DNA of 64,000 nt, taken from assembly GCA_014913405.1 (NCBI GenBank), contig GCA_014913405.1_3931.1. The stretch is one strand, 5' to 3'. The notes beneath the pieces are model-generated. The model did no database searches. It worked only from the letters and a program-made list of their open reading frames with translations, and was not told the origin of the DNA. Every line of letters starts with the position of its first letter. Within the stretch, counting starts at the first letter, position 1. Positions 22,884 through 28,092 of this stretch are shown piece by piece. Source of the DNA: a phage. The position numbers and the translations under genes are program-made.

Positions 22884-22957
22884 CTCTGTTTAGCTCAGCT
22901 TGGTAGAGCGTTCCGTTTGGGGCGGTAAGGCCGGAGGTTCAAGTCCTCCAACAGAGA
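22884..22957 (+). tRNA. tRNA-Pro(TGG)
   Basis: Manual cloverleaf; T-loop GGTTCAAGTCC; CCA encoded. Confidence 0.7.
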
Positions 22958-22967
22958 CCAAATTAAT

Positions 22968-23042
22968 GTTCCAGTGGACAAAATGGTAAAGTCACCACTC
23001 TTTCAAAGTGGATATTTGAGGGTTCAAATCCCTTCTGGAACG
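22968..23042 (+). tRNA. tRNA-Glu(TTC)
   Basis: Manual cloverleaf; acceptor GTTCCAG/CTGGAAC. Confidence 0.65.
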
Positions 23043-23051
23043 CCAGTTTTG

Positions 23052-23126
23052 ACAGAAGACCAATTACAGCAAACTTAATCTTATTCATCTGAAGGTAAAT
23101 CGGACAAAGAAGAGATTTGGTCTGGT
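23052..23126 (+). ncRNA. Structured inter-tRNA element E1 (CAGAAGACC ... GGTCTGG ends)
   Basis: Member of a family with conserved ends and compensatory stem changes. Confidence 0.45.
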
Positions 23127-23136
23127 CATTAAGAAT

Positions 23137-23210
23137 TGCGGGTATAGAGAAAGGGCGTCTCACATGTCTCATTAGCATGGTATCGGCAGGTTCGACTCCT
23201 GCACCCGCCT
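23137..23210 (+). tRNA. tRNA-like, CAT anticodon (Met/Ile2?), non-canonical
   Basis: Good T-arm and acceptor; 1-72 mismatch, 6-nt variable loop, U at position 37. Confidence 0.4.
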
Positions 23211-23218
23211 CCAAATTT

Positions 23219-23284
23219 ACAGAAGACCGTTTACAGCAATATTTATTAAATTTTTAGCGGAAAAATTGAAAGATACGGTCTGGT
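23219..23284 (+). ncRNA. Structured inter-tRNA element E2
   Basis: CAGAAGACCGTTTACAGCAA ... ACGGTCTGG. Confidence 0.45.
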
Positions 23285-23296
23285 AATACTAAACAT

Positions 23297-23370
23297 GGTT
23301 AGGAAGCACATAAGGTATGTGCGGTCGCCTGTTAAGCGAATGGCACAGGGTTCGAATCCCTGACTAACCG
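23297..23370 (+). tRNA. tRNA-Asn(GTT)
   Basis: Manual cloverleaf. Confidence 0.65.
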
Positions 23371-23442
23371 CCAAATTTAGGAGAGAAGCGATTGCTCACC
23401 GATTTGTAAGGTGCAAGTCCTTAGCCTGAATAGAAATCAAAT

Positions 23443-23527
23443 GTGTCGTTATCCCGTAGATGGTAGCGGTGGGGACTGTAAATCCCTTGTCATTGAGACT
23501 CGGTAGGTTCGACTCCTACACGGCACA
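23443..23527 (+). tRNA. tRNA-Tyr(GTA), class II with long variable arm
   Basis: Manual fold, 85 nt. Confidence 0.65.
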
Positions 23528-23536
23528 CCAAATAAA

Positions 23537-23611
23537 GGTTATGTAGTTTAATCTGGTTAAAATACTCCCCTGTCACGGGAGATGATGAGGGTTCAAATCC
23601 CTTCATAACCG
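23537..23611 (+). tRNA. tRNA-Asp(GTC)
   Basis: Manual cloverleaf, perfect anticodon stem. Confidence 0.7.
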
Positions 23612-23674
23612 CCAATTTTGAGAGGGCTATTTAGCCCCTCCCTTAAAGAGTTCTTACGAGTATTCTTTAAAGGA

Positions 23675-23750
23675 GCAGAAGACCAAATACAGCAAGCATG
23701 TATGAAATTTCAAACCAATTCAATTTTGAAAATTTAAAACTTGGTCTGGC
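23675..23750 (+). ncRNA. Structured inter-tRNA element E3
   Basis: CAGAAGACCAAATACAGCAA ... TTGGTCTGG. Confidence 0.45.
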
Positions 23751-23761
23751 TCAACAAATTT

Positions 23762-23895
23762 ACAGAAGACCGTTTACAGCAAAACTTAAACAATCTATTT
23801 CTCCGGTAAAGAAAAGGCGAGGGTTCGATTCCTTCACTCGGCAGATGTCGAGTTGGTGTAATGGTAGCACTTAAGATGATAAACAACGGTCTGGT
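23762..23895 (+). ncRNA. Structured element E4 containing tRNA-like T-arm and D-arm-like hairpins
   Basis: Same conserved ends; internal GGTTCGATTCC T-loop; no full tRNA folds. Confidence 0.4.
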
Positions 23896-24039
23896 AATTA
23901 TCTTTGTAGATAAGTTATTAAGCTTACCTGTGAGTATGCGACCACAAAGGGTGAATGGGTAAATTCTAGATTTAAACCCAAAAAGGCACATCGCTACAGA
24001 CCTTAAGCAAGTCTGGGTAGCTTATCTACAAAGATAATT
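23896..24039 (+). repeat. Perfect 19-bp inverted repeat (AATTATCTTTGTAGATAAG) enclosing about 105 nt
   Basis: Arms at 23896-23914 and 24021-24039. Confidence 0.8.
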
Positions 24040-24043
24040 TAAT

Positions 24044-25836: not shown

Positions 25837-25844
25837 CCAATTTT

Positions 25845-25917
25845 GCAGGATTAGTTCAAATGGAAAGAGCAACAGTCTACGAAGCTGTTAATAGGGGTTC
25901 GAATCCCTTATCCTGCG
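25845..25917 (+). tRNA. tRNA-Arg(ACG)
   Basis: Manual cloverleaf, perfect acceptor. Confidence 0.7.
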
Positions 25918-25937
25918 CCAGATAAAAAGGTGATACT

Positions 25938-26180
25938 ATGCAAACATTAACAGTAGTTGAACATGAAAACTGTGAGAGTATTGAGTTTGTCAGGGTCATT
26001 GGTGTTGAACACCACATTTTCTTAAAAGTGGGATACTTATGTGACCCCGCTAGAGTAGAAAGATTTATACGTGATTGTTTTGGTGGTAGACATCTGAAGA
26101 GTGTTATTTTTGAGACAGTTTTACCAGAAGGTTTAGAAACGAATAATAACATTTACCTCCTTACGAGGATTAGACAATGA
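25938..26180 (+). CDS. Hypothetical protein embedded in tRNA array
   Basis: ORF with AAGGTGA SD. Confidence 0.5.
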   Translation: MQTLTVVEHENCESIEFVRVIGVEHHIFLKVGYLCDPARVERFIRDCFGGRHLKSVIFETVLPEGLETNNNIYLLTRIRQ

Positions 26181-26734
26181 GATACTTAAAGTATGCTTCA
26201 TGGATTTTCTTAGCTTTGTTAGAGCCATTTGCAGCAATCTTAGCAGTTATCTTAGCACCTTTTGTAGTTCCATTCTACAGTGAGAAGAAAGGACACTTAC
26301 CTTTCGGGTTCAGATGGATGGAGACATATGACAACCCAATTGATGGTGATGAAGGTCACGTTAAAAGATGGGCTAATATTAGATGGATTGGTAAACTAGG
26401 TGTCTACATGCAAAGAGTCGGATGGCTCTGGAGAAACAAAGCTTATAACTTCTCTTACCATGTATTAGGAAGAGATGTAAGAGATGTTACTAAGTGGAAA
26501 GGTAATATCAACGTAAGTTCTAACCCTGAAGATAATCAGACTGGTTATCTCCTAATGTGGAACAGTAATGCTTGGGGATTATTCGCTTTTATCCCATCAA
26601 TTAAAGTCTTCGGTAAACAGTTTTACTGGAGAATTTATGTTGGATGGAAACTTAAAAGTGTTGTCCCAGAAGAAAGAGCATTCTCAAGGGAAAGAGTTAT
26701 GTTGGCATTCTTTATTCATCCACTGAGAAAGTAA
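26177..26734 (+). CDS. Membrane protein (N-terminal TM helix, Trp-rich), embedded in tRNA array
   Basis: ORF coupled by ATGA overlap. Confidence 0.5.
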   Translation: MRYLKYASWIFLALLEPFAAILAVILAPFVVPFYSEKKGHLPFGFRWMETYDNPIDGDEGHVKRWANIRWIGKLGVYMQRVGWLWRNKAYNFSYHVLGRDVRDVTKWKGNINVSSNPEDNQTGYLLMWNSNAWGLFAFIPSIKVFGKQFYWRIYVGWKLKSVVPEERAFSRERVMLAFFIHPLRK

Positions 26735-26742
26735 AGATTTAA

Positions 26743-26815
26743 AGGGGATTAGTTTACAAGGTTAAAACCTCGGTCTTTGAAATCGAAGAAGTTGGTTCAA
26801 TTCCAACATCCCCCG
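26743..26815 (+). tRNA. tRNA-Gln(TTG)
   Basis: Manual fold; 1-72 mismatch. Confidence 0.6.
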
Positions 26816-26820
26816 CCAAT

Positions 26821-26896
26821 GCTCCATTACTCCAATTGGCAGAGAGGCCAGACTTAAAATCTGTGTTATGTATCGGTTCGAATCCGATATGGAGTA
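26821..26896 (+). tRNA. tRNA with TAA anticodon (Leu-type), 7-nt variable loop
   Basis: Manual fold, 76 nt. Confidence 0.45.
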
Positions 26897-26904
26897 CCAA
26901 ATTT

Positions 26905-26977
26905 AGCGGTATAGCATAACTGGCAATGCAGCAGTCTCTGAAGCTGTCCTATTAAGGTTCAAATCCTTATGCCGCTG
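26905..26977 (+). tRNA. tRNA-Gln(CTG)
   Basis: Manual cloverleaf. Confidence 0.6.
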
Positions 26978-27011
26978 CCACTTCTAAGGATTCTTACGAG
27001 AGTCCTTAAAT

Positions 27012-27085
27012 GTGGCCTTATCATAAATGGTAATGACCCATGCTGTGAACATGGTCTATACGGGTTCAAATCCCGTAGGTCACCC
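27012..27085 (+). tRNA. tRNA-His(GTG)
   Basis: Manual cloverleaf; discriminator C. Confidence 0.65.
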
Positions 27086-27092
27086 CAATTTA

Positions 27093-27167
27093 TAGTCCAA
27101 GTAGCTTATATGGTTAAAGCGCGTGTCTGAAAAACATGAGAAGAGGGTTCAAATCCCACTGGACTAC
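27093..27167 (+). tRNA. tRNA-Phe(GAA), atypical acceptor/D junction
   Basis: Manual fold. Confidence 0.5.
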
Positions 27168-27185
27168 CAATTTCAAAGGTGCTTA

Positions 27186-27920
27186 ATGAAAGAGATGACA
27201 GAACAAGGTAAGGAGATTTTCAATCTCTTAAAAACCGGTAAAGGGTTTTCTAACCCCCTTATTACTGGTGCAGCAGTTCTCGGTGGAACCGTAGCTGCCT
27301 CTACATCACTTGTAAGCTCTATTAGCTCTGTATCAGACCCTACAGTAAAGGATAAGCTTGTTGCTGCTGGACTTACAACAGTTCTGCTTAACAGCTTTAC
27401 CACGAGTCTGACAAGCACTACATCAACTACCAAAACACTAACAGATTACGGTCAAAAGTCCATTGATGAGTTTTCATCACGTATGCAGGTAGCAAAAGGT
27501 TACTCTAATGTTATGGGTGCAGCAGGTGAACAAGTTGGCTGTACACCATTTAGTGGTATTATGGGTGTTGCTACAGAGTATGGTCAAAAAACTATTGATA
27601 CGATTAACAGTGTACTAGATAGTGTTAATGGTGTGTTAAGTGACTTACAAGATGCTATTGACAAAGGTCTTGATACTATTTCTGATTTAGCTGAGCAAGC
27701 TGTTAGTAAGATTAATGAAGGTATTTCAAAAATTACAGCTTATGCAGATGAAGTTGTGCAGATGATTGAAGAAGAAGCTGCTCTTATTGCAGAGTACCTT
27801 AAAACGAATATCAATGGGTTCTTAGCAGGTATCTTACCAGACTGGTTTGATGATGCTTGTAAAACTGGTGTAATTGACACTATTGCAACACCAGAAATGA
27901 AGAACGCATTACAGAAATAA
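27186..27920 (+). CDS. Hypothetical protein embedded in tRNA array (start moved from track 27123, which lies inside tRNA-Phe)
   Basis: In-frame ATG at 27186 with AAAGGTG SD. Confidence 0.5.
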   Translation: MKEMTEQGKEIFNLLKTGKGFSNPLITGAAVLGGTVAASTSLVSSISSVSDPTVKDKLVAAGLTTVLLNSFTTSLTSTTSTTKTLTDYGQKSIDEFSSRMQVAKGYSNVMGAAGEQVGCTPFSGIMGVATEYGQKTIDTINSVLDSVNGVLSDLQDAIDKGLDTISDLAEQAVSKINEGISKITAYADEVVQMIEEEAALIAEYLKTNINGFLAGILPDWFDDACKTGVIDTIATPEMKNALQK

Positions 27921-27922
27921 AT

Positions 27923-28012
27923 GGAAGATTAACCCTAAAAGGTAAGGGAGCAGTTTGCTAAACTGCCAGTAGCTGAGAAATCGGTGTACCAGTTCAAGTC
28001 TGGTATCTTCCT
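27923..28012 (+). tRNA. tRNA-Ser(GCT), class II
   Basis: Manual fold, 90 nt, perfect acceptor and anticodon stems. Confidence 0.7.
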
Positions 28013-28019
28013 CCAATTT

Positions 28020-28092
28020 GAATCCGTGACAGAAACGGCTATGTGCCTGTCTGCAAAACAGGTTTATAAGGGTTCGAGTCCCTTCGGATTCT
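28020..28092 (+). tRNA. tRNA-Cys(GCA)
   Basis: Manual cloverleaf, standard 73 nt. Confidence 0.7.

What the first reader, a model, noticed from the sequence alone, without database searches (positions are those of the whole stretch)
22884..28092. tRNA array of about 27 genes whose anticodons cover all 20 amino acids
By manual folding I find tRNA-like genes with anticodons for Pro, Glu, Met/Ile2 (CAT x2), Asn, Tyr, Asp, Lys (x2), Ile, Arg (x2), Trp, Ser (x2), Leu-type (x3), Ala, Gly, Thr, Val, Gln (x2), His, Phe and Cys. A full amino-acid set is unusual for a phage and suggests substantial independence from the host tRNA pool, or a counter to host tRNA-targeting defences such as anticodon nucleases. 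Several members are non-canonical, so the exact count needs software confirmation.
Basis: seen in the sequence. Interest (0 to 1): 0.6.

Follow-up and report, generated by a model that had tools for sequence, protein, structure and literature searches.

The report
Felix O1-type phage tRNA gene cluster
This is the well-known tRNA gene cluster of a Felix O1-like (Felixounavirus) phage: 26 software-confirmed tRNAs for 19 amino acids, plus a conserved, oddly built tryptophan-tRNA-like gene that detection programs and published annotations miss.

Summary
Rfam's curated threshold accepts 24. They cover 19 amino acids.

It is not noise, though. Window 24743-24825 is a conserved cloverleaf RNA: 8 of 20 pairs show compensatory changes across 12 variants. 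It has a CCA anticodon, G73, A1:U72, G5:C68 and an encoded CCA end. It is homologous to the canonical tRNA-Trp of Erwinia phage phiEa21-4, but carries a ~7-nt insertion in the D arm.

The region is 94-97% identical to more than 200 Felixounavirus genomes. Their tRNA clusters are long published (Felix O1, 22 tRNAs; Sf14, 26 tRNAs for 19 amino acids). The cluster itself is therefore already known.

Codon usage and the near-minimal U34 anticodon set support a translation-supply role. The anti-nuclease idea remains possible but is not supported by the anticodon loops.

Seen in passing:
- a Ro60-fold protein gene just upstream;
- a YrlA-like Y RNA inside the array;
- a tmRNA-like tag frame inside the array.

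The parts
22884..22960 (+). tRNA-Pro (UGG), CCA encoded
   Evidence: ARAGORN; Rfam tRNA 57.7 bits
22968..23045 (+). tRNA-Glu (UUC)
   Evidence: ARAGORN; Rfam 59.3 bits
23137..23213 (+). tRNA with CAU anticodon, copy 1. Weakest canonical member. It has a U1.C72 mismatch and a UGCGGGU acceptor strand close to that of E. coli initiator tRNA (CGCGGGG), but no three G-C pairs in the anticodon stem. It also has U37 and U73. Met, fMet or Ile2 identity is unresolved.
   Evidence: ARAGORN; no Rfam tRNA hit; sequence comparison; Cove score 28.9 for the Felix O1 homologue (PMC3185647)
23297..23373 (+). tRNA-Asn (GUU)
   Evidence: ARAGORN; Rfam 48.0 bits
23443..23530 (+). tRNA-Tyr (GUA), long variable arm
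   Evidence: ARAGORN; below the Rfam tRNA cut-off, 29.6 bits to the tRNA-Sec model; called 'pseudo' in Felix O1
23537..23614 (+). tRNA-Asp (GUC)
   Evidence: ARAGORN; Rfam 67.4 bits
24044..24119 (+). tRNA-Lys (UUU). Anticodon loop identical to E. coli; position 41 is U where the host has A.
   Evidence: (54.4 bits)
24124..24200 (+). tRNA with CAU anticodon, copy 2. G1-C72, U73, and GGG/CCC at 28-30/40-42.
   Evidence: (55.6 bits)
24202..24277 (+). tRNA-Ile (GAU)
   Evidence: 62.3 bits
24524..24600 (+). tRNA-Arg (UCU), reads AGA. AGA is 8.8-fold enriched in the phage relative to E. coli.
   Evidence: (64.1 bits)
24743..24825 (+). Non-canonical tRNA-Trp-like gene. Features:
- 8-bp acceptor stem (or 7 bp plus G8-C65), then G73 and an encoded CCA;
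- invariant connector AUGUUAAGA;
- 3-bp D stem with a GG-containing loop;
- 5-bp anticodon stem;
- 9-nt loop CCUCCAAAA, which is the CUCCAAA loop of E. coli tRNA-Trp flanked by a C31.A39 mismatch;
- 4-bp T stem with loop UUCAACU.
   Evidence: Not called by ARAGORN. Rfam 23 bits to tRNA-Sec only. Covariation in 12 variants: 97.9% of cells paired, 8 of 20 pairs with double changes, 0 of 500 shuffles reach the observed score. RNAalifold predicts the same fold. Homologous to the canonical phiEa21-4 tRNA-Trp.
24839..24928 (+). tRNA-Ser (UGA), long variable arm. The 3' end reads G73-CCU rather than CCA.
   Evidence: (33.2 bits). Phage-borne tRNA-Ser(UGA) lets natural phages grow on Syn61delta3, and eight such phages are Felixounavirus (PMC12269064).
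25183..25260 (+). tRNA-Leu (UAG), only 78 nt (short variable arm), A73
   Evidence: (40.0 bits)
25268..25343 (+). tRNA-Lys (CUU). None among the E. coli K-12 tRNA loci fetched; PMC12482277 reports no host counterpart for Sf14's. AAG is 2.9-fold enriched in the phage.
   Evidence: (56.9 bits)
25350..25425 (+). tRNA-Ala (UGC), with the G3.U70 pair
   Evidence: 62.7 bits; sequence
25432..25506 (+). tRNA-Gly (UCC)
   Evidence: 59.6 bits
25513..25589 (+). tRNA-Thr (UGU). Positions 39-40 are GG where the host has UC.
   Evidence: (54.7 bits)
25686..25760 (+). tRNA-Val (UAC)
   Evidence: 60.0 bits
25762..25839 (+). tRNA-Leu (CAA), 78 nt, short variable arm
   Evidence: (44.0 bits)
25845..25920 (+). 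tRNA-Arg (ACG)
   Evidence: 59.5 bits
26743..26818 (+). tRNA-Gln (UUG)
   Evidence: 56.6 bits
26821..26899 (+). tRNA-Leu (UAA), 79 nt, short variable arm
   Evidence: (47.5 bits)
26905..26980 (+). tRNA-Gln (CUG)
   Evidence: 57.0 bits
27012..27087 (+). tRNA-His (GUG). C73 is present, but the base at -1 is U, not G.
   Evidence: (53.3 bits)
27094..27169 (+). tRNA-Phe (GAA)
   Evidence: 45.0 bits
27923..28015 (+). tRNA-Ser (GCU), long variable arm
   Evidence: 46.2 bits
28020..28095 (+). tRNA-Cys (GCA)
   Evidence: 56.3 bits
22738..22857 (+). Two sigma70-like promoter matches upstream of the first tRNA (22738-22766 and 22828-22857). Function is inferred only.
   Evidence: The number of matches in the region is not above the shuffled expectation.
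28258..28275 (+). Terminator-like hairpin followed by a T run, downstream of the last tRNA
21304..22719 (+). Neighbouring gene: a 471-aa Ro60/TROVE + vWA fold protein (DUF2828 + DUF7788)
   Evidence: Pfam. AlphaFold model with pLDDT 86.8. Foldseek to Ro60 structure 2i91, E 2.9e-8, TM 0.66.
23760..23897 (+). Neighbouring RNA inside the array: a YrlA-like Y RNA candidate. A long 5'/3' stem encloses V hairpin, T arm, closed acceptor-like stem and D arm, in that order.
   Evidence: fold; RNAalifold on 8 variants, with 3 compensatory pairs in the acceptor-like stem; architecture matches the description in PMC4201824
24293..24523 (+). Neighbouring RNA inside the array: a strong promoter match (24293-24321) followed by a tmRNA-like RNA with tag frame 24371-24406 (ANDNVFLAVA**). 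No tRNA-like domain was found.

Best explanation
The region is the conserved tRNA gene cluster of a Felix O1-like myovirus (Felixounavirus, Ounavirinae). It holds 26 tRNA genes and one structurally aberrant tRNA-Trp homologue, all on one strand.

The most likely mechanism, step by step:
1. The genes are transcribed by host RNA polymerase from sigma70-type promoters as multi-tRNA precursors (inferred).
2. Host RNase P and 3' nucleases cut them out (inferred). All 26 canonical tRNAs except Ser(UGA), and the Trp-like gene too, already carry their CCA end (shown).
3. Host aminoacyl-tRNA synthetases charge them (inferred from identity elements in the sequences).

The set has one U34 tRNA per four-codon box, plus decoders of AGA, AAG, UUA, CUA and similar codons. 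This gives the AT-rich phage (39% G+C) a nearly complete decoding set of its own, biased toward the A/U-ending and host-rare codons it uses most. Phage protein synthesis, especially late, is thereby buffered against a host tRNA pool that is ill-matched, decaying or being destroyed.

Shown here: the genes, their folds, their conservation, the codon match, and their divergence from host tRNAs. Shown by others in close relatives: phages carrying tRNA-Ser(UGA) propagate in a host that lacks it. Inferred: expression, processing and charging of each member, including the Trp-like RNA.
For: - Gene calls: 26 ARAGORN calls with the expected anticodons; 24 pass the Rfam gathering score.
- Relatives: 94-97% identity to more than 200 Felixounavirus records, with tRNAs annotated at the same places. 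The same anticodon set, in a partly different order, is kept in Yersinia phage P778, Citrobacter phage Moogle and metagenomic relatives.
- Host-synthetase identity elements are present: G3.U70 in Ala; A73 in the three Leu; G73 in Asp, Asn, Glu and Gln; C73 in His; U73 in Gly and Cys.
- Codon usage: Watson-Crick cognate codons of the phage tRNAs are enriched in 71 window ORFs relative to E. coli (mean log2 ratio +0.43 against -0.65, Mann-Whitney p = 0.015). Examples are AGA 8.8x, ACA 3.5x, AAG 2.9x, UCA 2.7x, CUA 2.5x. The host codon table was taken from memory.
- Coverage: the set reads 45 codons (76% of phage codons) by strict wobble, and 59 of 61 with U34 superwobble plus the Trp-like RNA.
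- Literature: Felix O1's authors inferred that seven of its tRNAs could affect translation rate (PMC3185647). For Sf14, tAI of late genes is highest with the phage tRNA pool alone (PMC12482277). Natural phages carrying a seryl-tRNA restore TCA/TCG reading and propagate in Syn61delta3, which lacks serT/serU; eight of the twelve phages reported in another study were Felixounavirus (PMC12269064).
- Trp-like RNA: conserved with compensatory changes. It bears all four E. coli TrpRS identity elements (PMC12135181), and no canonical tRNA-Trp is found in any relative that carries it.
Against: - No expression, processing or charging data exist for this window.
- tRNAscan-SE flags several homologues as pseudogenes in some records.
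- tRNA-His has U at -1 instead of the G-1 that E. coli HisRS relies on (the HisRS requirement is from general knowledge).
- The first CAU tRNA has U37 and no Rfam hit.
- The three Leu tRNAs lack the long variable arm.
- The Trp-like RNA has a D-arm insertion with no precedent known to me in a working elongator tRNA, and it fails all detectors.
- Strict-wobble coverage of phage codons (76%) is no higher than the same set's coverage of E. coli codons (78%), so self-sufficiency depends on assuming superwobble.
- The codon-enrichment test uses a host table recalled from memory and crude ORF calls.
Confidence: 0.75

Rival explanations
1. The main selective reason for the array is counter-defence. 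The phage copies replace host tRNAs cut by anticodon nucleases and related effectors (PrrC, PARIS AriB, retron Eco7 PtuAB, colicin-like enzymes), and their sequences have diverged so that they escape cleavage. This does not exclude the translation-supply explanation.
For: - The mechanism is demonstrated for T5: its tRNA-Lys/Thr/Asn against PARIS (PMC12409363) and its tRNA-Tyr against retron Eco7, and expressed tRNA-Lys rescues T1/T7 from PrrC170 (PMC11555353).
- The window encodes all of those isoacceptors.
- Every phage tRNA is only 57-81% identical to its E. coli counterpart.
- At the mapped AriB site (U39-C40|A41), the phage Lys has U41, Thr has G39 G40, and Asn has G39 and G41. U39A abolishes AriB cleavage and A41C strongly inhibits it.
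- 12 of 25 comparable tRNAs differ from the host in the loop, nearly all at positions 32 or 38.
Against: - Anticodon loops are identical to the host's in Lys(UUU), Tyr, Asn, Asp, Thr and both Arg tRNAs. By general knowledge these include the PrrC and colicin E5/D targets.
- The Sf14 study examined the same question and rejected it (PMC12482277).
- A near-complete 26-27 gene set is much more than known nucleases would require.
- No nuclease assay exists for these tRNAs.
Confidence: 0.3
2. The Trp-like RNA (24743-24825) is not a decoding tRNA. It is a tRNA mimic kept for another purpose, such as a decoy, a regulator or a ligand of the neighbouring Ro60-like protein. On this reading the phage supplies only 19 amino-acid specificities.
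For: - It fails ARAGORN and Rfam.
- The invariant 9-nt connector AUGUUAAGA and the persistent 31.39 mismatch with a 26-44 pair look like selected, non-tRNA features.
- Other tRNA mimics lie in the same array: a YrlA-like RNA and a tmRNA-like RNA.
- A Ro60-fold protein is encoded next door.
Against: - The CCA anticodon, U33, G73 and the encoded CCA end are invariant in all 12 variants, while the stems drift with compensation.
- The minor TrpRS elements A1:U72 and G5:C68 are present.
- The C31.A39 mismatch is shared with the phiEa21-4 tRNA-Trp, which software accepts.
- E. coli TrpRS is reported to contact the anticodon and acceptor arm; no D-arm contact is reported (PMC12135181).
- No relative that carries this RNA has another tRNA-Trp.
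Confidence: 0.4
3. A large part of the array is decaying pseudogenes carried along by recombination and homing-endonuclease traffic, with only a few functional tRNAs.
For: - 'Pseudo' flags in some tRNAscan annotations.
- tRNA fragments in the spacers, for example T-arm-like pieces at 23408-23422 and 23806-23838.
- Variable HNH endonuclease insertions in relatives.
Against: - The anticodon set is nearly identical in phages whose Trp-like RNA is only 77.6% identical and whose flanking Ro60-like protein is only 53% identical, and ARAGORN still recognises each cloverleaf.
- 23 genes score at least 40 bits against the Rfam tRNA model.
- The fragment at 23806-23838 turned out to be part of a conserved YrlA-like RNA, not debris.
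Confidence: 0.05

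Closest known systems
tRNA clusters of Felixounavirus / Ounavirinae phages (Felix O1, wV8, typing phage 1, Ro111lw, Moogle, Sf14)
   Same: 94-97% nucleotide identity over the whole 5.4 kb. Same gene order, Pro-Glu-Met-Asn-Tyr-Asp-Lys-Met-Ile-Arg and onward, the 'PEMN' group G1 of PMC6409571. Same flanks: Ro60-like gene upstream, terminase downstream. Sf14 is published as having 26 tRNAs for 19 amino acids, the same count ARAGORN gives here.
   Different: Nothing of substance; this is another member. Published counts vary from 17 to 27 with the software used. 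No feature overlapping the Trp-like gene itself was listed in the records I inspected. One record inserts an HNH-type ORF or extra spacer where the window has none, and the window has a 69-nt insert between Asn and Tyr.
Canonical tRNA-Trp(CCA) of Erwinia phage phiEa21-4 (Kolesnikvirus) and E. coli trpT
   Same: The Trp-like RNA shares with them the anticodon loop CUCCAAA, G73, A1:U72 and G3-G5:C68-C70. With phiEa21-4 it shares the 15-nt core CGGCCUCCAAAACCG, including C31.A39.
   Different: About 7 extra nucleotides on the 5' side of the D arm (invariant UGUUAAGA). A49.C65 in place of a T-stem pair, or equivalently an 8+4 arrangement. A Watson-Crick 26-44 pair. Not recognised by ARAGORN or the Rfam tRNA model.
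Phage T5 tRNA-rich region
   Same: A large one-strand tRNA array in a virulent coliphage. It includes Lys(UUU), Thr(UGU), Asn and Tyr, which have been shown to defeat tRNA-targeting defences.
   Different: An unrelated phage family, with no sequence relationship tested here. No defence phenotype is known for the Felixounavirus array. The specific T5 escape substitution U39A is not present in the window's tRNA-Lys; only position 41 differs from the host.
Bacterial Ro60 (Rsr) / YrlA Y RNA modules (side observation)
   Same: A Ro60-fold TROVE+vWA protein lies next to an RNA with the YrlA order V-T-AS-D enclosed by a long 5'/3' stem (PMC4201824). The Moogle version has a 7-bp acceptor-like stem followed by GCCA, like the M. 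smegmatis YrlA that RNase P cleaves.
   Different: The protein belongs to Pfam DUF2828/DUF7788, not the TROVE family by sequence. The Rfam YrlA model does not hit the RNA. The 5'-strand motif is ACAGAAG rather than GNCGAAN0-1G. Binding is untested.

Membership tests
Bacterial-type tRNA genes | Cloverleaf recognised by a dedicated detector | tested here: met
   26 of 27 candidates are called by ARAGORN at default thresholds. The Trp-like RNA is not, even at 80% of the thresholds.
Bacterial-type tRNA genes | Score at or above the Rfam RF00005 gathering score (29 bits) | tested here: met
   24 of 27 pass, at 33-67 bits. The failures are CAU copy 1 (no hit), Tyr (only 29.6 bits to tRNA-Sec) and the Trp-like RNA (23 bits to tRNA-Sec).
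Bacterial-type tRNA genes | 7-nt anticodon loop with U33 and a purine at 37 | tested here: met
   All 26 have a 7-nt loop with U33. A37 or G37 is present in all but CAU copy 1, which has U37.
Bacterial-type tRNA genes | Expression, processing and aminoacylation | not testable with these tools
   Indirect only: phages carrying tRNA-Ser(UGA) propagate on Syn61delta3, and eight such phages are Felixounavirus (PMC12269064).
Felixounavirus tRNA cluster | High nucleotide identity and the same gene order and flanks as reference genomes | tested here: met
   347 phage records match; 233 cover at least 80% of the region; the best are 97% identical. Annotated tRNAs are in the same order, with the Ro60-like gene upstream and terminase downstream.
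tRNA-Trp (bacterial identity) - applied to 24743-24825 | Anticodon CCA | tested here: met
   Invariant in 12 variants. Named as the identity element in PMC12135181.
tRNA-Trp (bacterial identity) - applied to 24743-24825 | Discriminator G73 followed by CCA | tested here: met
   G-CCA is invariant in 12 variants. G73 is the major determinant.
tRNA-Trp (bacterial identity) - applied to 24743-24825 | Minor elements A1:U72 and G5:C68 | tested here: met
   Both are present in the window. Position 1:72 is A-U in 7 variants, G.U in 3 and G-C in 2. G5:C68 is invariant.
tRNA-Trp (bacterial identity) - applied to 24743-24825 | Canonical D arm: 2-nt connector and a 3-4 bp stem at positions 10-13/22-25 | tested here: not met
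   A 9-nt connector precedes a 3-bp stem. There are about 7 extra nucleotides relative to phiEa21-4 and E. coli tRNA-Trp.
tRNA-Trp (bacterial identity) - applied to 24743-24825 | Anticodon stem closed by a 31-39 pair | tested here: not met
   C31.A39 (C.C in P778), with a compensating 26-44 pair. The same mismatch occurs in the accepted phiEa21-4 tRNA-Trp.
tRNA-Trp (bacterial identity) - applied to 24743-24825 | Charged with tryptophan and used on the ribosome | not testable with these tools
   Needs acid-gel Northern blotting, tRNA-seq or in vitro charging.
Nuclease-escaping phage tRNAs (as in mycobacteriophage cluster C and T5) | Anticodon-loop substitutions relative to the host in the tRNAs that nucleases target | tested here: not met
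   Loops are identical to E. coli in Lys(UUU), Tyr, Asn, Asp, Thr, Arg(ACG) and Arg(UCU). His differs at positions 32 and 38.
Nuclease-escaping phage tRNAs (as in mycobacteriophage cluster C and T5) | Substitutions at the AriB (PARIS) recognition and cleavage site, positions 39-41, of Lys, Thr and Asn | tested here: met
   Lys UCU against host UCA; Thr GGA against UCA; Asn GCG against UCC. The site is defined in PMC12409363. Whether these changes give resistance is not known.
Nuclease-escaping phage tRNAs (as in mycobacteriophage cluster C and T5) | Demonstrated resistance, or rescue of infection | not testable with these tools
   No data for this phage group. The Sf14 computational study argued against it.
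tmRNA (side observation, 24293-24523) | Tag reading frame with a GCA resume codon, ending in hydrophobic residues with Ala last and double stops | tested here: met
   GCA AAC GAC ... GCU UGA UAG encodes ANDNVFLAVA**. E. coli ssrA encodes ANDENYALAA**, with the same first 9 nt and the same length. The peptide is conserved in 31 loci, with synonymous changes.
tmRNA (side observation, 24293-24523) | tRNA-like domain with G3.U70 and a CCA end; Rfam gathering score | tested here: not met
   No such domain was found. Rfam scores are 29.2 bits (permuted model) and 15.7 bits (standard model) against cut-offs of 47. ARAGORN's call in Moogle borrows tRNA-Lys as its 5' domain.
Ro60 / YrlA Y RNA module (side observation) | Ro60 (TROVE + vWA) fold protein encoded adjacent to the RNA | tested here: met
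   The eight best Foldseek matches (E 3e-8 to 3e-6) are Ro60/TROVE structures, including 2i91, 1yvr, 9kop (TROVE domain) and 2nvo (Deinococcus Rsr). The model has pLDDT 86.8.
Ro60 / YrlA Y RNA module (side observation) | RNA with V, T, closed acceptor-like and D stem-loops inside a long 5'/3' stem | tested here: met
   RNAalifold consensus on 8 variants, with 3 compensatory pairs in the acceptor-like stem. The reference architecture is described in PMC4201824.
Ro60 / YrlA Y RNA module (side observation) | GNCGAAN0-1G Ro-binding motif; match to Rfam YrlA | tested here: inconclusive
   The 5' strand reads ACAGAAG, in all four repeat copies. There is no YrlA hit at this locus.

The most novel reading that the evidence does not exclude
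The Felixounavirus/Mooglevirus lineage, more than 250 sequenced genomes, keeps a working but structurally aberrant tRNA-Trp: a ~7-nt invariant D-arm insertion, a 31.39 mismatch with a 26-44 pair, and an encoded CCA. Gene finders and the annotations I inspected miss it. If it is charged and decodes, these 86-kb phages carry a complete 20-amino-acid set. The remodelled D arm would then need explaining, for example as escape from a host factor that recognises tRNA-Trp, or as altered decoding by analogy with the D-arm Hirsh UGA suppressor of E. coli tRNA-Trp (recalled from memory). Together with the adjacent Ro60-fold protein, the YrlA-like Y RNA family and a tmRNA-like RNA lacking a tRNA-like domain, the array would be a hub of tRNA and tRNA-mimic RNAs rather than a plain tRNA cluster.
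Probability: 0.45. Interest if true: 0.55.

Novelty: already known. Interest (0 to 1): 0.33.

Why it matters
The array itself adds nothing new. It has been described since the Felix O1 and wV8 genomes, has been surveyed across viruses, and has been exploited in recoded-genome work.

What could matter is the correction to the standard description. Published counts of 17-26 tRNAs and 19 amino acids for this phage group probably omit a conserved, covarying tRNA-Trp homologue that no detector recognises. This is a caution for surveys that rely on tRNAscan-SE or ARAGORN, and for designs that rely on phages lacking a given tRNA.

The side observations give cheap experimental entry points into what phage tRNA islands do beyond supplying codons. 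These are the Ro60-fold protein with YrlA-like RNAs, and a promoter-driven tmRNA-like tag RNA.

Tried and rejected
- Relaxed ARAGORN thresholds (90, 80 and 70%) to recover Trp. At 70% only noise appears, including a 'Pyl' call over the locus and false Trp calls elsewhere. I therefore did not use ARAGORN as support.
- A single-sequence fold of the Trp-like RNA is not significant on its own (z = -1.19). Only the comparative evidence is.
- An alternative D stem, UGUU/AGCA, was rejected because Moogle, P778 and L050 break it. CUC/GAG covaries instead.
- The connector UAAGAC could pair with the 3' trailer GUCUUA. I rejected this because the trailer is not conserved in L025, L035, L044, L050 or P778.
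- Sequence searches of the upstream protein against the PDB, as a single sequence and as a 30-sequence profile, found nothing. Only the fold search found Ro60.
- ARAGORN's permuted tmRNA in Moogle is a composite that uses tRNA-Lys as its 5' domain. I do not accept it as a complete tmRNA.
- The Rfam 'Plastid-ycf2', miRNA and Dicty class I hits are reverse-strand or generic hairpin matches to tRNAs and spacers.
- A literature search on DUF2828/TROVE returned nothing relevant. A search for the Nyerges 2023 paper found no copy. The supplements of the YrlA paper are not held, so I could not check whether Felix O1-like phages were in its list.
- Stop-codon usage (TAA 55, TGA 12, TAG 4) neither supports nor excludes UGA reading by the Trp-like RNA.
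- I could not run tRNAscan-SE isotype models, so the two CAU tRNAs remain unassigned among Met, fMet and Ile2.

Full report

ARAGORN on the whole window returns 26 tRNA genes and nothing else. All are on the + strand, between 22884 and 28095. Their anticodons are:
- Pro UGG, Glu UUC, CAU x2, Asn GUU, Tyr GUA, Asp GUC;
- Lys UUU and CUU, Ile GAU, Arg UCU and ACG, Ser UGA and GCU;
- Leu UAG, CAA and UAA, Ala UGC, Gly UCC, Thr UGU, Val UAC;
- Gln UUG and CUG, His GUG, Phe GAA, Cys GCA.

Rfam at gathering score accepts 24 of them, at 33-67 bits. It misses the first CAU tRNA (23137-23213), which gets no hit even at E<=10. It also misses Tyr, which reaches 29.6 bits only against the tRNA-Sec model.

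All of them except Ser(UGA), which reads CCU, carry an encoded 3' CCA followed by an A/T-rich spacer. So the array, its coordinates and 26 of the 27 assignments are confirmed. By software it covers 19 amino acids.

**2. The claimed Trp gene.**

The only CCA-anticodon candidate lies at 24743-24825, between Arg(UCU) and Ser(UGA). ARAGORN does not call it at 100, 90 or 80% of its thresholds. Its best Rfam score is 23 bits to tRNA-Sec, and its single-sequence folding energy is unremarkable (z = -1.19). On those grounds alone it would be dismissed.

Comparative evidence says otherwise:
- The 238-nt spacer containing it is conserved in 255 phage records. The one distant hit, Yersinia phage P778, aligns only over the element itself, at 77.6% identity.
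- Pattern scans of IMG/VR and metagenomes gave further variants. These scans required GATGTTAAGAC, so that motif's invariance is partly by construction, except in P778.
- On 12 distinct sequences, a cloverleaf of 20 pairs is 97.9% paired.
- 8 pairs show changes on both sides. The covariation score is 0.367 against 0.136 in shuffles (0 of 500 reach it), and at most 0.065 when partners are slid.
- RNAalifold predicts the same structure independently.

The anticodon stem occurs as AACGG/CCGUU, GACGG/CCGUU, GUAAG/CUUAC, GUAAG/CUUGC, GUAGG/CCUAC and ACUUG/CAAGU. The D stem occurs as CUC/GAG, CAC/GUG and CGU/ACG. The outer T-stem pair is G-C or U-A. The first acceptor pair is A-U, G.U or G-C.

Invariant features are the anticodon CCA with U33, G73, the encoded CCA end, and the 9-nt connector AUGUUAAGA.

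**3. What the Trp-like RNA is.**

Erwinia phage phiEa21-4 belongs to a sister genus of the same subfamily. It has a canonical tRNA-Trp that both its annotators and ARAGORN accept. Aligned with it and with E. coli trpT, the window RNA shares four things:
- the A1:U72 pair;
- G3-G5:C68-C70;
- G73;
- the loop CUCCAAA.

With phiEa21-4 it also shares the 15-nt core CGGCCUCCAAAACCG, including the C31.A39 mismatch.

The E. coli TrpRS-tRNA co-crystal paper names the anticodon and G73 as major identity elements and A1:U72 and G5:C68 as minor ones. [quoted passage not shown] All four elements are present here.

The differences from a normal tRNA-Trp are:
- about 7 extra nucleotides on the 5' side of the D arm;
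- A49.C65, or equivalently an 8-bp acceptor stem with a 4-bp T stem;
- a Watson-Crick 26-44 pair.

No relative that carries this RNA has any other tRNA-Trp.

My reading is that it is a remodelled descendant of the subfamily's tRNA-Trp, kept under selection. I put about 55-60% on it still working as a tRNA and about 40% on it being a mimic with another role.

**4. What the array is.**

The 5.4-kb region matches 347 phage records. 233 of them cover at least 80% of it, and the best are 97% identical (Felixounavirus AN17P8, vB_EcoM-Ro111lw, typing phage 1, wV8). Annotated relatives show the same tRNAs in the same order, a 471-aa gene upstream, and terminase downstream.

The literature already describes this cluster:
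- Felix O1 has 22 tRNAs, two of them flagged 'pseudo' (PMC3185647).
- wV8 has 23 (PMC2674420).
- Felixounavirus genomes have 17-23 by tRNAscan (PMC8300805).
- Moogle has 21, plus an ARAGORN 'ssrA' (PMC4319497).
- A survey of viral tRNA clusters lists a group whose isotype order begins P-E-M-N. It reports that only 8 of 228 clusters hold all 20 isotypes (PMC6409571).

So the cluster is known. A true 20-isotype set would be uncommon, but software gives 19 here.

**5. How it most likely works.**

Against E. coli K-12 tRNAs fetched for every isoacceptor, the phage tRNAs are 57-81% identical. They keep the discriminator and other identity features of the host system: G3.U70 in Ala, A73 in Leu, C73 in His, U73 in Gly and Cys, and so on. 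This fits charging by host synthetases.

In 71 crude ORFs of the window (16,109 codons), the Watson-Crick cognate codons of the phage tRNAs are enriched relative to E. coli. The mean log2 ratio is +0.43 against -0.65 for other codons (Mann-Whitney p = 0.015). AGA is enriched 8.8x, ACA 3.5x, AAG 2.9x, UCA 2.7x, CUA 2.5x and GUA 2.1x. The host table was recalled from memory, so the numbers are approximate.

Every four-codon box except Arg is served by a single U34 tRNA:
- With strict wobble the set reads 45 codons, 76% of phage codons.
- With U34 superwobble and the Trp-like RNA it would read 59 of 61. Only AUA and CGG are left out, and AUA may be covered if one CAU tRNA is Ile2.

That is the shape of a minimal, nearly self-sufficient decoding set.

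For function in relatives:
- Natural phages carrying a seryl-tRNA restore reading of TCA/TCG and propagate in Syn61delta3, which lacks serT and serU. Eight of the twelve phages reported in another study to infect that strain are Felixounavirus (PMC12269064). REP5, REP6 and REP8 are among my BLAST hits.
- The Sf14 analysis found the highest adaptation of late genes to the phage-only tRNA pool.

I therefore favour translation supply and buffering of late phage translation. Expression, processing and charging are inferred.

**6. The counter-defence idea.**

This mechanism is proven for T5 against PARIS, and against retron Eco7; expressed tRNA-Lys also rescues T1 and T7 from PrrC170 (PMC12409363 and PMC11555353).

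In this window the anticodon loops of Lys(UUU), Tyr, Asn, Asp, Thr and both Arg tRNAs are identical to the host's. 12 of 25 tRNAs differ in the loop, almost only at positions 32 and 38. The Sf14 authors made the same observation and rejected nuclease escape.

One detail points the other way. AriB recognises U39-C40|A41, and the phage Lys (U41), Thr (G39 G40) and Asn (G39, G41) all differ there. This is compatible with escape from PARIS, but it proves nothing. I keep it as a non-exclusive rival at about 0.3.

**7. Caveats on 'all members functional'.**

- tRNA-His has U rather than G at -1 in the window and in the Felixounavirus and Moogle-type relatives I compared (A in one, L007), while phiEa21-4 and E. 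coli encode G-1.
- CAU copy 1 has U37, U73 and a U1.C72 mismatch. Its acceptor strand is nearly that of the E. coli initiator, but it lacks the three G-C pairs in the anticodon stem.
- The three Leu tRNAs are 78-79 nt, without a long variable arm.
- tRNAscan flagged five homologues as pseudo in one record.

None of these is decisive, but they lower confidence that every specificity is delivered.

**8. What else is in the array (outside the finding).**

The spacers are not empty.

(a) *Ro60-like protein.* The upstream 471-aa protein (21304-22719) is DUF2828 + DUF7788 by Pfam. It has no PDB relative by sequence. Its AlphaFold model (pLDDT 86.8) matches Ro60, a TROVE-domain structure and Deinococcus Rsr. 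The best match is 2i91, with E 2.9e-8 and TM 0.66. Homologues occur in many phages, including KVP40 and other Vibrio phages and Listeria, Campylobacter and Mycobacterium phages. In some of these they are annotated 'Ro-like RNA binding protein'.

(b) *Y RNA-like repeats.* A 20-nt motif, CAGAAGACCNNNTACAGCAA, occurs four times in the window, all inside the array (chance expectation 0.01). Each copy pairs with a downstream GGUCUGG to close a 75-140-nt element, and the bases next to GACC covary between copies. The largest element (23760-23897) encloses a V hairpin, a T arm, a closed 7-bp acceptor-like stem and a D arm, in that order. The acceptor-like stem shows three compensatory pairs across relatives. 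This is the architecture of bacterial YrlA Y RNAs, which are encoded next to Ro60 (PMC4201824). In Moogle the acceptor-like 3' strand is followed by GCCA. The Rfam YrlA model does not hit the element.

(c) *tmRNA-like RNA.* Between Ile and Arg(UCU), a near-consensus promoter (TTGACA-17-TATAGT, 24293-24321) precedes a conserved structured RNA. It contains GCA AAC GAC AAU GUU UUU CUG GCA GUA GCU UGA UAG, encoding ANDNVFLAVA** (24371-24406). E. coli ssrA encodes ANDENYALAA**, with the same first nine nucleotides and the same length. Rfam gives sub-threshold tmRNA hits (29.2 and 15.7 bits against a cut-off of 47). No tRNA-like domain with G3.U70 is present. ARAGORN's 'ssrA' in Moogle is a composite that borrows tRNA-Lys. 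I regard it as a tmRNA-derived RNA of unknown function.

**9. Verdict.**

- The claim of 20 amino acids depends on one gene that software rejects but comparative analysis rescues.
- The cluster itself is already known and ordinary for this phage genus.
- The modest residual interest lies in the unannotated tRNA-Trp homologue and the neighbouring tRNA-mimic RNAs.

Noticed in passing
window 21304-22719 (+): The gene immediately upstream of the array encodes a 471-aa protein (Pfam DUF2828 + DUF7788). Its AlphaFold model (pLDDT 86.8) matches Ro60/TROVE + vWA structures: 2i91, 1yvr and Deinococcus Rsr 2nvo. Homologues are widespread in other phages, including Vibrio (KVP40), Listeria, Campylobacter and Mycobacterium phages.
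   Followed up: yes
window 23760-23897 (+): A conserved RNA with a long 5'/3' closing stem. Inside are a V hairpin, a T arm (GAGGG-UUCGAUU-CCUUC), a closed acceptor-like stem (ACUCGGC-AGAU-GUCGAGU) and a D arm, which is the YrlA (bacterial Y RNA) architecture. The acceptor-like stem covaries in relatives, and the Moogle version carries GCCA. The Rfam YrlA model does not hit it.
   Followed up: partly
window 23050-23128, 23217-23286, 23673-23752 (+): Three smaller hairpin elements share the same closing stem and the motif CAGAAGACCnnnUACAGCAA ... GGUCUGG. There are four copies in all, against 0.01 expected by chance. The bases next to GACC covary between copies. They may be YrlB-like partners of the Ro60-like protein. 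One to four copies are present in most relatives.
   Followed up: partly
window 24293-24523 (+); tag frame 24371-24406: A near-consensus sigma70 promoter is followed by a conserved structured RNA with a tmRNA-like tag frame, ANDNVFLAVA** (E. coli: ANDENYALAA**, same first 9 nt). The stop codons sit in a hairpin loop, and the next hairpin shows compensatory changes. There is no tRNA-like domain, and Rfam tmRNA hits are below threshold. Relatives carry one of two alternative 3' terminal hairpins. ARAGORN's 'ssrA' was mentioned for Moogle in PMC4319497.
   Followed up: partly
window 27011-27087 (+): tRNA-His has U at position -1 opposite C73, in the window and in the Felixounavirus and Moogle-type relatives compared (A in one). 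phiEa21-4 and E. coli encode G-1. This may explain the 'pseudo' flag in some annotations.
   Followed up: partly
window 25183-25260, 25762-25839, 26821-26899 (+): All three tRNA-Leu genes are 78-79 nt and lack the long variable arm of bacterial tRNA-Leu (85-87 nt in E. coli). They keep A73.
   Followed up: no
window 23137-23213 (+): The first CAU tRNA has a 1.72 mismatch (U.C) and an acceptor strand, UGCGGGU, close to that of E. coli initiator tRNA (CGCGGGG). It lacks the three G-C pairs of the initiator anticodon stem, and has U37. The second CAU tRNA (24124-24200) has GGG/CCC shifted by one position. Identity (Met, fMet or Ile2) is unresolved.
   Followed up: partly
window 24839-24928 (+): tRNA-Ser(UGA) is the only member whose 3' end is not an encoded CCA; it reads G73-CCU.
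   Followed up: no
window 23374-23442 (+): A 69-nt spacer between Asn and Tyr contains a T-arm-like hairpin (AAGGUGCAAGUCCUU). It folds better than shuffles (z = -2.2). Ro111lw lacks it; there Asn and Tyr are 11 nt apart by its annotation.
   Followed up: no
window 25938-26180, 26177-26734, ~27170-27920 (+): Three protein genes are embedded in the array: an 80-aa ORF, a DUF7338 protein (185 aa) and a DUF7217 protein. All are of unknown function and all are conserved in relatives.
   Followed up: no
L073 (Erwinia phage phiEa21-4) 21381-25328: This sister-genus phage has a canonical tRNA-Trp but no Cys among 27 ARAGORN calls. It has no Ro60-like gene immediately upstream of its array; gp42 there is only 366 nt.
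   Followed up: no
phage records: Single records named Staphylococcus phage and Campylobacter phage carry this enterobacterial Felixounavirus spacer at high identity. They are probably mislabelled or contaminated entries. PMC6409571 also notes a Staphylococcus phage in this cluster group.
   Followed up: no
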